Source of the DNA: Octopus vulgaris
Lineage: Eukaryota
Direction: 5' to 3'
Assembly: GCA_951406725.2 (NCBI GenBank)
Contig: OX597817.1
Location: forward strand, 145,886,001-145,950,000
Length of the DNA: 64,000 nt
Shown here: positions 7,285 through 50,489 of the stretch, piece after piece
Layout of the letters: each line of letters starts with the position of its first letter
Position numbering within the stretch: position 1 is the stretch's first letter
Position numbers and translations under genes: made by a program
The notes under the pieces: generated by a model
What the model was told of the DNA's origin: nothing
The model's input: only the letters and a program-made list of their open reading frames with translations
Databases searched by the model: none

Positions 7285-7890
7285 TGTGCCACCTGACTGG
7301 CTCCTGTGCTGGTGGCACATAAAAAGCACCATTCAAGCGTGGTCAATGCCAGTACCGCCTGACTGGCTCCTGTGCTGGTGGCATGTAAAAAGCACCATTC
7401 AGACATGGTCAATGCCAGTACCACCTGACTGGCTCCCATGGTGGTGGCACATAAAAAGTACCATTCAAGTGTGGTTGATGCTAGTGCGCCTGACTGCTCC
7501 ATGCTGGTGGCACATAAAAAGCACCATTCAAGCATGATCATTGCAAGTGCTGCCTGACTGGCTCCTGTGCTGGTGGCACGTAAAAAGTGCCATTCAAGCA
7601 TGGTCGATGCCAGTACTGCCTGACTGGCTCTCTTGCCAGTGGCATGTAAAAAGCACCCTTCAAGCATGGTTGATACCAGTGCCACCTGACTGGCTCTCAT
7701 GCTAGTGGCATTAAAACACACCCACTACATTCTCAGAGTGGTTGGCATTAGGAAGGGTATCCAGCTGTAGAAATTTTGCCAGATTAGATTGGAGCCTGGT
7801 GCAGCCTTCTGACTTGCCAGTGCTCAGTCAAACCGTCTAACCCATGCCTGCATGGAAAGCAGACGTTAAACGAAGATGATGATGATAATG
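7285..7890 (+). mobile_element. SINE-like family C with an internal tandem array of about 66-bp units and a (GAT)n tail
   Basis: About 6.5 units of CTGACTGGCTCCTGTGCTGGTGGCACGTAAAAAGCACCATTCAAGC..., then GGTTGGCATTAGGAAGGGxATCCAGCTG...GTTAAACGATGATG. More than 20 copies in the window, e.g. 2395-2745(-), 14770-15070(-), 16370-16830(+), 20900-21187(+), 24325-24635(-), 27270-27578(-), 29565-29905(-), 36185-36590(-), 42270-42715(-), 45155-45565(-) and 49425-49910(-). Confidence 0.85.
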
Positions 7891-38963: not shown

Positions 38964-39819
38964 AGTTATATAAATTTTAATACTTCAGCATTTGGAAAAA
39001 GAACTAAAAAGACAAGGAGAAAATTTTTAGGATATAGTTTCTTGATTGTAAGAGATTTAAGACAAGTTAATATGTGTCAGTCAATGGTTTAAGGATATTT
39101 CATTTTTGTATTTGGTTTGCAAGAGTTTTTATGTGAAGCAGCGTGTTGAAACAGATTTTGTTGTATCTTGAGTGGGTCATTATGCCAATAATAAACACAT
39201 ACACTGATTATATTTCACATCTTTTGTTATTAGTTTATTCATTAGCTATTTAACCAATTAACTAATTGATTATTTGATTAATTGTTCAGGCAATCAATCA
39301 ATCATCTAGATCTGTCAAAGTCCTTTTGACACTATTCGTAACCTCATCAGCGATATGGCCTTTCTATACTGAAGCAGATCTGGAGTAAACTGAGAGAGAA
39401 AGAGCATGTCACTGATGTGGTTGTGAAGAATAGCAAAGATAGGACTTGCTGATGATAGATTCACTGACCCATTCATTATTATCATTATCATTATGCCACG
39501 TAATAAAGCATCTGTGCTGGTGCCACATAAAAAGCACCCAGTACACTCTGTAGAGTTGCTGGCATTAGGAAGGGCTTCAAGCTGGAGAAACCAAACTAAA
39601 ACTGACTATGGAATCTGGTGTGACTCCTGGTCTTGCCAGTTCCAGTGAAACCACTGAACCCATGCCAACATAGAAAAAGGGACATTAAATGATGATGACG
39701 AGGTTCCATGCTGGCATGGGTTGGATGGTTTGACAGGAACTGATGTGTCCAAGATTGGTTAATTGGTTTAATAGTTAACCACAAGAAGTGAAATAGAACC
39801 AGAGTAATATTTTTACTAT

Positions 39820-47466: not shown

Positions 47467-47569
47467 CTCCAAATGGTTCCTGTTTAGGCCACAGTAGTAG
47501 CCGGACATATTCTATACAATGTTCTGGAAGTCTTGGTGTGTGAGCAATTGTACACAGTGGGAAATTGAT
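47467..47569 (-). CDS. UBA3: UBA3 exon carrying the catalytic Cys
   Basis: [34 protein letters not shown], with the E1 active-site motif PxCT. Confidence 0.97.
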
Positions 47570-48076
47570 CTAAAACAAAAGAAAAAATATTTTGGATTTT
47601 TATTGGAATCTTTGTAAAAATATAACATTTAGAATATATAAAAAAAAGTTCTATTTGAGAATTTCTCAGATGAATTTTAATAGAAATGGGAAAATATTCA
47701 ACTTTAAAAGTTTCAATAATAAAAAGATTATATTAATATCAGCCAAATCAAATGAAAATTAAATAACAAAAATTTTTAACGGTTTGGGTTTCAACCAGCC
47801 AAAGACAATCCTTAGTTCTAAGATACAAAACCTCTTCTATTAAAGTGTTTGTATTTAACCCTGTTGTTACCATACCTCAGTTGAAATACACTGCCTAAGT
47901 TTCAATTAATTATGAAAATAAAAAATTTACTAAAATAATTACGATGTACTTGCATAGCAAGTGACCTGATCTGATATCGTGTACTGGAATGAAAACAATT
48001 GCAGCGTGGAAGGTGTTTATAAGCCATTTAAGAAACACATGAAAACCGTTAGATTCACTTCAACATTTAAATTTAA

Positions 48077-48126
48077 TTTTCCAAAATATTTTCATCACTT
48101 TCAGACCGTGACCTGTTCACTGACAA
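48077..48126 (-). ncRNA. Second putative hammerhead copy on the inverted arm
   Basis: TTGTCA-GTGAACA-G-GTCAC[GGTCTGAAA]GTGAT-GAAA-ATATTT-TGGAAA. Confidence 0.5.
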
Positions 48127-48169
48127 TGGGATTGCAAGGGCAGAAAGAATTGCAAGGGCTGCACGGAAT

Positions 48170-48220
48170 TTTGTCAGTGAACAGGTTGCGGTCTCAAAGT
48201 GACGAAAATATTTTGGCAAA
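48170..48220 (+). ncRNA. Putative minimal type I hammerhead ribozyme (G3:C8 variant)
   Basis: TTTGTCA-GTGAACA-G-GTTGC[GGTCTCAAA]GTGAC-GAAA-ATATTT-TGGCAAA. Stems I and II pair, and stem III is palindromic. Confidence 0.6.
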
Positions 48221-49956
48221 TTAAATTTAAATGTTGAAGTGAATCTTACGGTTTTTGTGTGTTTCTTAAATGGCTTATAAACACCTTCCATGCTGCAATT
48301 GTTTACTAAAATAACTTTTGTCATTATTAAGTTGGTGTTTGGAAAATAAATTAAAAGGAATTTTTAAAGGAAGGTTTTAATTTAAATCACTTTAAAATTG
48401 GAAGTTTGTATCATAAAACAAAGGGCAATCTCAGGTGGATTGATAAAAGGGTTCAATTAAAACATTTCATAATTTCAATAAGATTATTGTTTTTAAAAGA
48501 CAAAAGCAATGTCTGAATACAACAGTCATGTCACCATATAACATAATCACCATCTGCTCACTGAACTAGCTAGAAATAACAACTAAATCTCCCTCAAATC
48601 TGACCCTACCATTGTAAAAGAGGATACTATAGACAGCATAATCATGGTTGCACAGTGAAAACATGATATGGTTGTGGCTAGAATGACTTTGGTCAGTTCA
48701 ATCAGGGTTGATATGGGCCTAACAACAACACAGCAGCAATGCAGACAAGGCTGTGGAGTAGACTTCATCTGTTATCAGGTAACAGATGAAGTCTATGACA
48801 GAGGGAGTGGGTAAGTTTGCAAGCATGCGAAAGGAGAGTAGCAGATGGACAGAGATTGGAATAGCGGGGCTCAGGTGTTAGAAATTATCTATATAATAAT
48901 CTACTTGTTTATTCACCCATTACACTTTAGTTAATTAAAGAGGTGGAAGTGGAGTAAGAGTGAGAGAGAGAGAGAGGAGTGGAGTAAGAGTGAGAGAGAG
49001 AGAGAGGAGTGGAGAAAGAGAGGAGGAAGTAGAGAAAGGTGAATAATTTTAATACACTTAGGCCAAATGTGTCATGTGGTCAGCTGAAGGGAGACACGAA
49101 GAATGAGAGAAAAAGATGGCGAGAGAGAAGTGTTGAGATGCATCATCAAACAGCCGAACTGAAATGAGCTTTGTTTCTGAAAATTATAGTGATGATGATG
49201 ATAGTGGTGGTAGTGGTGTGTTGATAGTGGAAAGTTACAGGGAGAAGATATAATAAAAAGAGAAAAAAAGACAACACCAACTGAGACATGAGGAAATGAA
49301 TGTGGACAAACGCCAAGTATATTTAAAGAAGGCTAAACTATGAACACTATAAAAATGCAAATCATTCTTTCTTTCTTAAATGGGTCCTCTTAATTTTTTT
49401 CTTTCCATGAAATATACATGGGTCCCATCATAGTTTAACGTCCACTTTCCATGCTAGCATGGGTTGGACGATTTGACTGAGGGCTGGCGAACCAGATAGC
49501 TGCACAAGGCTCCAATCTTGATCTGGCAGAGTTTCTACAGCTGGATGCCCTTCCTAATGCCAACCACTCCGAGAGTGTAGTGGGTGCTTTTATGTGCCAC
49601 CTGCACAGGGGCCAGTCAGGCAATACTGGCATCAACCTCGCTCGAATGTTTTTTCACGTGCCAGTAAGGCGACACTGGTAACAATCACATTTGAATGGTG
49701 CCTTTTATGTGCCACCAGCACGGAAGCCAGTTAGCCGCTCTGGCAACGATCACGCTCAGATGGTGCTCTTAGCACCCCACTAGCACAGATGTCAGTCATC
49801 GAATTCGATTTCACTTGCCTCAACAGGTCTTCGCAAGCAGAGTTTAGCGTCCAATGAAGGAATGGTACCCATAAGTAGGCTGGTTATAAGCATAAGTGGG
49901 CTGGTTACAACTAGTAAATAAATAAAAGGAACAAGTTAGAAAATGTTAAATCATAC

Positions 49957-50112
49957 CTGAGGTGGATAAAAATCCAAAGTACATTCAATACAGGCAGACA
50001 TTCCTGGAAATATAACCCTGGCATTACCCTTGAAGCCTTCCGTTCCACCATCAACCATTGGAATCACAGATGCTTGATCAAGAATACCATCTTCATAGTT
50101 TAATAAACTTAT
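49957..50112 (-). CDS. UBA3: UBA3 exon
   Basis: [52 protein letters not shown], with the DGGTEGFKG and CxxC motifs. Confidence 0.97.
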
Positions 50113-50489
50113 CTGAAATACAACAACAAAAAAACAGATTAAACAGTAACTTAGATGGGGAAATGTTAATTGGTTGAGGCAATTGACACCTTTTATTTGC
50201 TTCCTCATCATCATTATTTTAGGTCACTTTTCCATCCTGGATTGAAAGGATCTGAGTCATTTTTTACTGGGAGCTATTGCTCCAGAAGACTGGTGTTCGT
50301 AAATGTCACTTGGCATGGTTTCTATAGATGGATGCCCTTCCTATGGCCAACCACTTTAAAGAGGGTACTAAGTGCATTTTCTTGTGACAGCGACACTAGA
50401 GCACTCAGTAATGTAAAGAAGGGGAATTAGTACTAGTTTGTTTGTCATTGTTGATGATGACCAAGAATATCTCATGAGAGAAAAGGGTG

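What the first reader, a model, noticed from the sequence alone, without database searches (positions are those of the whole stretch)
47926..48314. Penelope-like foldback carrying two hammerhead ribozymes with a compensatory G3:C8 core
Seen: two 134-bp inverted arms in a UBA3 intron, flanked by TTTACTAAAATAA. Each arm folds as a minimal type I hammerhead. On the right arm, stem I is TTTGTCA/TGGCAAA, the core is GUGAACA instead of CUGANGA, stem II is GTTGC/GTGAC (GTCAC/GTGAT on the left arm), followed by GAAA and a tiny palindromic stem III (AATATT). The predicted cut is after UUU at 48213. Established: C3 and G8 form a tertiary Watson-Crick pair, and minimal hammerheads with palindromic stem III occur in Penelope-like elements, which often insert as inverted repeats. 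Inference: both core changes are that pair swapped, so this family may use a rare variant that CUGANGA searches would miss. The left copy is on the UBA3 sense strand and could cut the pre-mRNA unless the foldback masks it.
Basis: partly seen in the sequence, partly recalled or inferred. Interest (0 to 1): 0.8.

Follow-up and report, generated by a model that had tools for sequence, protein, structure and literature searches.

The report
Swapped-core hammerhead in Penelope retroelement remnant
This fold-back is a decayed end-piece of a very common octopus jumping gene whose predicted self-cutting RNA has two paired core letters swapped across the whole family, a likely natural version of a lab mutant, while this particular copy is unlikely to cut the host gene it sits in.

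Summary
The two 134-bp arms, the 13-bp flanking duplication, the UBA3 intron and the GUGAACA core are all there. The stretch is a short, inverted insertion of a Penelope-like retroelement of Neptune type. Longer copies carry an RT plus GIY-YIG ORF, and the motif sits where Penelope hammerheads sit: after the pLTR intron end and before the ORF start. G3:C8 is the family state (8,350 exact matches against 854 with another base at 3 or 8). The sister octopus families and four of five metagenome relatives keep C3:G8, and one has U3:A8. Position 3:8 is a Watson-Crick pair in 11 of 11 aligned representatives. So the swap looks like a real compensatory change on one branch. I found no natural G3:C8 hammerhead in the papers searched, but the largest survey was not readable. 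Cleavage is untested, and 8 of 70 ORF-linked copies have an unpaired G3:G8. The UBA3 idea is not supported. The sense-strand arm is damaged and does not fold as a hammerhead alone. It has no same-strand partner for a dimer and is buried in a -208 kcal/mol hairpin. Verdict: new variant of a known kind.

The parts
47926..47938 (.). Left target-site duplication (13 bp)
   Evidence: D12. 12-14-bp duplications in unique sequence flank 6 of 27 other insertions; most others sit in TA runs. No empty site was seen.
47939..47992 (-). Element 'tail': start of the ORF between the two inferred reverse-transcription start points
   Evidence: Shared 3' end of many copies; continues into the ORF in full-length copies
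47993..48126 (-). Left arm: pLTR fragment, on the UBA3 sense strand
   Evidence: 86-88% identical to pLTRs flanking RT-EN ORFs
48077..48126 (-). Left hammerhead motif, damaged (G3 at 48120, C8 at 48115, U17 at 48084; G10.1-U11.1 wobble, G-A mismatch in stem I)
   Evidence: 19 bits with a model built without this family
48025..48027 (-). ORF start codon of the left copy (only about 30 codons present)
   Evidence: Same ATG opens the family ORF, MAYKHLPR..., in full-length copies
48127..48160 (.). Filler between the arms with an 11-bp direct repeat; origin unknown
   Evidence: No match in any fetched locus except the window's own
48161..48304 (+). Right copy: pLTR fragment ending at the first inferred reverse-transcription start; antisense to UBA3
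   Evidence: one arm ends here and the other at the tail end in 16 of 17 inverted insertions
48170..48220 (+). Right hammerhead motif: G3 48177, C8 48182, extra G 48184, palindromic stem III 48207-48212, predicted cut after 48213
   Evidence: best hit in the window (25.2 bits, E about 2e-4) with a model built without this family
48302..48314 (.). Right target-site duplication (overlaps the element end by 3 bases)
47570..49956 (-). UBA3 intron that holds the insertion

Best explanation
The stretch is a 5'-truncated, inverted insertion of a Penelope-like retroelement whose terminal repeat carries a minimal hammerhead motif with the 3:8 core pair swapped family-wide, likely a compensatory change that keeps weak dimer- or protein-assisted self-cleavage in source elements, while this copy is probably an inert passenger in a UBA3 intron. 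Shown: the order intron end, hammerhead, ORF start, two shared 3' end points; the RT and GIY-YIG ORF; G3:C8 in about nine of ten copies; C3:G8 or U3:A8 at the same place in relatives. Inferred, by analogy with Anolis Poseidon: the element's protein nicked AT-rich DNA, started reverse transcription at the two internal sites, and the two short cDNAs were joined back to back, giving one arm with and one without the tail. Inferred: in source transcripts two copies pair through the palindrome AAUAUU, G3 pairs with C8 to place the 2'-OH of residue 8, and the RNA is cut after UUU. Inferred: U17 rather than C17 helps, because G3-C17 would trap an inactive fold. Part confidences: Penelope origin 0.98, hammerhead homology 0.95, cleavage by intact copies about 0.6, cleavage of UBA3 RNA by this copy under 0.05.
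For: [quoted passage not shown] Arrangement: 17 of 27 insertions have an inverted partner, as described for PLEs (PMC8557442). Swap: 8,350 G3:C8 matches, 0 in the reversed control, against 527 with another base at 8 and 327 with another base at 3. Sister families have C3:G8 in the same frame of stems. Of 10 metagenome relatives, 5 reach the motif: 4 are C3:G8 and 1 is U3:A8. The tree joins this family with a C3:G8 sister (99/100), so G3:C8 is derived. 3:8 is paired in 11 of 11 rows, and 88% of cells pair against 67% shuffled. Stem III is a palindrome of six different sequences. The young subfamily changed loop II but kept both stems and the core. No variant at 2% or more is listed in the core in four runs labelled as four organisms. 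The C3G/G8C double mutant partly restores cleavage in a PLE hammerhead (PMC11167929). A G3-C8 variant is less active with C17 than with G17 (PMC3884650; 'data not shown').
Against: No cleavage data exist here. 8 of 70 motif copies found through the ORF carry unpaired G3:G8, on several sequence backgrounds, far above the roughly 1.5% genome-wide. The young sister family has C instead of A at core position 9 in many near-identical copies, so these lineages tolerate odd cores. Hammerhead cleavage was dispensable for PLE insertion in vitro, and no RNA ends were found at the cut site in Anolis. The swap is a single evolutionary event, and the two G:C rows are not independent. The computed dimer is about 2 kcal/mol less stable than two monomers and less stable than misfolded dimers. 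The inserted base is G, while the published consensus has H.
Confidence: 0.68

Rival explanations
1. The motif is a hammerhead by descent but no longer cuts. G3 and C8 were fixed one after the other in a source lineage under relaxed selection, and the stems are kept for another job, such as protein binding or translation control just upstream of the ORF.
For: G3:G8 in 8 of 70 ORF-linked copies. C9 in the young sister family. Cleavage not needed for insertion in vitro. The double swap gives only partial rescue.
Against: All other core letters, the extra base, G10.1-C11.1 and the palindrome are intact while loop II turned over. Both departures from C3:G8 seen among families restore a Watson-Crick pair. 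G8 is not enriched genome-wide over A8 (7 against 6 of the first 30 hits).
Confidence: 0.25
2. The host uses the left hammerhead to cut or regulate UBA3 pre-mRNA, with the foldback as a switch.
For: The left arm is on the UBA3 sense strand inside an intron. Active intronic hammerheads are known in amniotes (PMC3088659).
Against: The left motif is the more damaged one. Its hammerhead fold computes at -2.2 against -6.1 kcal/mol for another fold, and its dimer at -3.8 against -12.2. It has no same-strand partner. The whole region folds into a -207.8 kcal/mol hairpin whose other arm is transcribed first. The foldback is the family's usual insertion product.
Confidence: 0.03
3. A foldback DNA transposon or MITE with terminal inverted repeats, in which the hammerhead look is chance.
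For: Long inverted arms and a flanking duplication. Rfam gives no hammerhead match.
Against: Arms differ in length from copy to copy and continue into an RT-EN ORF. Rfam also misses the canonical-core relatives. A model built without this family ranks the arms first and third in the window.
Confidence: 0.02

Closest known systems
Minimal type I hammerheads (min-HHR) in pLTRs of metazoan Penelope-like elements (Cervera and De la Pena 2014, PMC4209133; main text parts 1-2 of 4 and supplement file 2 parts 1-2 of 3 read)
   Same: Type I topology, extra base between 9 and 10.1, G10.1-C11.1, tiny palindromic stem III, frequent U17 (a UUU triplet occurs in the oyster example), place in the pLTR next to an intron end, pairs of copies on opposite strands.
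   Different: Core GUGAACA (G3:C8). None of the 56 listed representatives has G3; two have U3:A8 and one U3:G8. The inserted base is G rather than H.
Natural U3:A8 hammerhead variants (Perreault et al. 2011, PMC3088659, passages read; Schistosoma Cercyon elements, PMC4209133)
   Same: Compensatory change of the same tertiary 3:8 pair.
   Different: U:A keeps pyrimidine at 3 and purine at 8 (two transitions). G:C reverses them (two transversions).
Engineered C3G/G8C mutant of the Anolis Poseidon hammerhead (Frangieh et al. 2024, PMC11167929; parts 1-2 of 4 read)
   Same: Same swap in a PLE hammerhead; two internal reverse-transcription starts defining a tail inside the ORF start.
   Different: Laboratory mutant with partial rescue, Poseidon clade, ORF starting inside the hammerhead. 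Here it is the natural family state, and the ORF starts 56 nt after the cut site.
Neptune/Nematis EN+ Penelope-like elements (Craig et al. 2021, PMC8557442; introduction and passages read)
   Same: C-terminal GIY-YIG with CCHH, cysteine linker between RT and EN, inverted 5'-truncated copy plus tail, insertion into TA runs.
   Different: Not placed against named reference elements, so Neptune versus Nematis is not settled. The window copy keeps only pLTR fragments.

Membership tests
EN+ Penelope-like element (Neptune type) | Single ORF with RT | tested here: met
   YVDD and flanking RT motifs in a 1,025-codon frame; 48% identical to a protein its source calls RT-domain-containing. Pfam gave no RT hit on three fragments.
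EN+ Penelope-like element (Neptune type) | C-terminal GIY-YIG endonuclease with CCHH | tested here: met
   PF01541 at E 0.0023, 18.6 bits, below the 22.6 cut-off, in 1 of 3 fragments; two Cys before YIG and two His after, conserved in most of the 8 aligned rows
EN+ Penelope-like element (Neptune type) | CX2-5CxxC linker between RT and EN | tested here: met
   Three invariant Cys in 8 of 8 rows; definition from PMC8557442
EN+ Penelope-like element (Neptune type) | pLTR, inverted 5'-truncated copy and one-sided tail | tested here: met
   17 of 27 insertions inverted, 16 of those with one tailed and one tailless arm; full-length examples
EN+ Penelope-like element (Neptune type) | Retained intron in the pLTR | tested here: inconclusive
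   Branch point, pyrimidine run and AG upstream of the motif; splicing not shown
EN+ Penelope-like element (Neptune type) | RT phylogeny within Neptune rather than Nematis | not tested
   The tree has no named reference elements
Minimal type I hammerhead of PLEs | Literal core consensus CUGANGA | tested here: not met
   GUGAACA in both arms and 8,350 copies; hence filed as a variant, not a plain member
Minimal type I hammerhead of PLEs | Watson-Crick pair between positions 3 and 8 | tested here: met
   G:C here; paired in 11 of 11 family representatives (CG 8, GC 2, UA 1)
Minimal type I hammerhead of PLEs | U4, G5, A6, A9, GAAA and NUH cleavage triplet | tested here: met
Minimal type I hammerhead of PLEs | Stems I and II with G10.1-C11.1 and an extra base after A9 | tested here: met
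   Perfect in intact family copies; wobbles in the right arm; G-U and a mismatch in the left arm, which fails
Minimal type I hammerhead of PLEs | Short palindromic stem III for dimer formation | tested here: met
   AATATT; six different palindromes among relatives. Dimer stability by folding is marginal.
Minimal type I hammerhead of PLEs | Site-specific self-cleavage | not testable with these tools
   Only assembled contigs were available, which cannot show RNA ends
Rfam hammerhead families | Match to a curated covariance model | tested here: inconclusive
   No match in the window, but none for five canonical-core relatives either

The most novel reading that the evidence does not exclude
This family carries a working natural G3:C8 hammerhead, the reversed form of the catalytic 3:8 pair known so far as a lab mutant, fixed in about 9,000 copies and made viable by a U17 cut site. 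Together with the C9 core of its young sister family, it would show that Penelope hammerheads, helped by the element's own protein, can use cores that standard searches exclude, so whole ribozyme families are being missed.
Probability: 0.35. Interest if true: 0.65.

Novelty: new variant of a known kind. Interest (0 to 1): 0.45.

Why it matters
The 3:8 pair is one of the few tertiary contacts in the hammerhead active site. Nature was known to swap it to U:A; the reversed G:C form appears in the papers I could read only as a partly active mutant. A young, abundant element family that fixed G3:C8, next to sister families with the usual pair, gives a natural test of whether Penelope hammerheads must cut at all. 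That question is still open. It also shows that CUGANGA-based searches miss thousands of motifs in one genome. The specific copy in UBA3 matters little.

Tried and rejected
Rfam scans of the locus and of seven family or relative loci gave no hammerhead match even for canonical cores, so they say nothing here. A tandem of three copies 2.6 kb apart is a local duplication without a PLE ORF. I tested whether G3:G8 copies are a large fossil intermediate. They are not enriched genome-wide (T8 17, G8 7, A8 6 of the first 30 hits; about 53, 25 and 22 of the first 100 rows by hand count) and are no more diverged than G3:C8 copies (89.5 against 89.4% to one reference). Their excess among ORF-linked copies stays unexplained. 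Three family copies with C3:G8 may be relics or double mutations; not decidable. I checked whether the motif is constrained by coding: the ORF starts downstream of it, though an upstream exon was not looked for. No RNA holder was listed for the stretch. Laying RNA-type contigs showed UBA3 exons but cannot show cut ends, and no empty insertion site was found. Rows dropped: L283 was left out of alignment A4 because its shorter stem III misaligned. L329 (damaged stem I) was in neither A3 nor A4. The structure counted was derived from these same sequences, so its slid control is biased. Model R1 includes octopus families that share ancestry with this one, so one search is not a pure structure test. 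Literature: searches found no natural G3:C8 hammerhead. Lunse et al. 2017 (about 150,000 PLE variants, figure recalled) and Przybilski and Hammann 2007 are not held. Supplement file 1 of PMC4209133 could not be searched. Any of these may report the variant. Passages of PMC6155905 and PMC11014351 and part 1 of 5 of bioRxiv 10.64898/2026.07.22.740005 added nothing on it.

Full report
Observation. The region holds inverted arms at 47993-48126 and 48171-48304 (134 nt, 93% complementary) and an identical 13-mer at both outer ends. The core pattern occurs twice in the window against 0.05 by chance. RNA-type contigs join exons 47467-47569 and 49957-50113. These translate on the minus strand to UBA3, so the insertion is intronic and the left arm is on the sense strand.

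What the element is. The arm is a high-copy repeat (2,121 first-look candidates, 40 scored). Walking upstream in other copies led through a branch point and 3' splice-site motif and a microsatellite-rich spacer to a GIY-YIG-like domain and an RT with YVDD. One young copy has a 1,025-codon open frame flanked by the motif in direct and inverted orientation. Full 5' ends show the order intron end, hammerhead, ATG, then the ORF; the ATG lies 56 nt after the predicted cut. Pfam support is thin (GIY-YIG at E 0.0023 in 1 of 3 fragments, no RT hit), but the cysteine linker and CCHH pattern fit the Neptune/Nematis definition. The nearest named homolog, labelled Octopus vulgaris by its source, matches this genome at 100%.

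How the foldback arose. Among the first 30 G3:C8 hits on one chromosome (27 insertions), 17 have an inverted partner. In 16 of these, one arm stops about 30 nt into the ORF and the other about 90 nt in. The window copy is the same: the right arm stops at the first point and the left carries the tail (47939-47992). In Anolis Poseidon, reverse transcription starts at two internal sites that define such a tail (PMC11167929). I infer the same mechanism here. Six of the 27 insertions have 12-14-bp duplications in unique sequence, so the 13-mer is very likely a target-site duplication. The foldback is thus the family's ordinary insertion product.

The core swap. G3:C8 is the family state: 8,350 exact matches with 0 in the reversed control, against 527 with another base at 8 and 327 with another base at 3, a few of them unrelated. 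The exceptions follow a neutral spectrum, so variation among copies says little. Four runs labelled as four organisms list no core variant at 2% or more. The comparison that matters is between families. A sister family (48% protein identity, intact 1,312-codon frames) has, at the same place, the same extra G and nearly the same stem II around C3:G8. A canonical-core pattern finds 915 matches in related octopus families; 5 of 30 examined loci show the ORF upstream. Of 10 metagenome relatives, 5 reach the motif (3 found by script, 2 by eye): four have C3:G8 and one U3:A8. The protein tree makes this family sister to the C3:G8 family (99/100), so G3:C8 is one derived change. Over 11 representatives the 3:8 pair is Watson-Crick in all, 12 of 13 counted pairs show two-sided changes, and 88% of cells pair against 67% shuffled (see caveats under tried and rejected). 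Stem III is a palindrome of six different sequences. A model built without this family ranks the right arm first and the left arm third in the 64-kb window.

Does it cut? Not shown. In favour: intact copies fold as hammerheads (z -2.9 and -3.3), the young subfamily replaced loop II but kept stems and core, and the engineered C3G/G8C mutant partly restores cleavage in a PLE hammerhead (also the review PMC8495972, one passage). Pairing of position 3 with 17 traps hammerheads, and a G3-C8 variant did worse with C17 than with G17 (PMC3884650, passages). The family's U17 may therefore be what makes the swap tolerable; this is my inference. Against: 8 of 70 copies found through the ORF have unpaired G3:G8, the young sister family has C9, computed dimers are marginal, and cleavage was dispensable for insertion in vitro. 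PLE hammerheads are slow even as dimers (PMC4209133; PMC6765202, section 11 part 2). I put activity in intact copies at about 0.6.

UBA3. The sense-strand motif has G10.1-U11.1 and a G-A mismatch in stem I. It prefers another fold. Its only neighbour is on the other strand, so a single transcript cannot make the dimer. The antisense arm is transcribed first, and the pair forms a -207.8 kcal/mol hairpin. Cleavage of UBA3 pre-mRNA by this copy is very unlikely.

Novelty. Minimal hammerheads in PLE pLTRs are known, and so is natural U3:A8. None of 56 published representatives has G3, and nine paper searches found no natural G3:C8. The largest survey of these variants could not be read, so novelty is provisional. 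Other notes of this scan on the same genome reach the same reading; they are not independent evidence. Verdict: a new variant of a known kind, interest 0.45.

Noticed in passing
L167:4655-4690 and L212:1500-1540; 23 of the first 100 rows (hand count): The young sister family has core CUGAUGC, with C instead of the nearly invariant A9, in many near-identical copies with intact ORFs; its older subfamily has A9. Metagenome relative L285 also has C9, together with U3:A8.
   Followed up: partly
window 39310-39358 (-), possible partner 39404-39472 (+): A second, decayed canonical-core hammerhead of the sister-family type, between UBA3 exons on the sense strand; its GAAA box is mutated (24.3 bits).
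   Followed up: partly
window 48150-48304, run X21: The one RNA-type run shows 8 A>G and 8 T>C places, including in the stem III palindrome; the three other runs list no A>G and 1-3 T>C. This would fit A-to-I editing of family foldbacks, but it is another organism with only 86 contigs laid.
   Followed up: no
L067, L069, L070, L139, L145, L147: G3:G8 makes up 8 of 70 motif copies next to ORF sequence but only about 1.5% genome-wide, on several loop II backgrounds; unexplained.
   Followed up: partly
window 48127-48160: Filler between the arms with an 11-bp direct repeat, not found in any other fetched locus.
   Followed up: partly
L125, minus strand, oriented 7510-7700: The young subfamily carries about 190 bp of extra non-repetitive sequence inside the putative pLTR intron, not seen in the older copies read; a promoter candidate.
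   Followed up: no
L284:1-2500: A metagenome Neptune-type element whose ORF region has a long tandem-repeat stretch with a unique segment inside it, upstream of the RT; its hammerhead has GAAU in place of GAAA.
   Followed up: no
window 48759-48795: Perfect 16-bp inverted repeat with a 5-nt loop in the same UBA3 intron.
   Followed up: no
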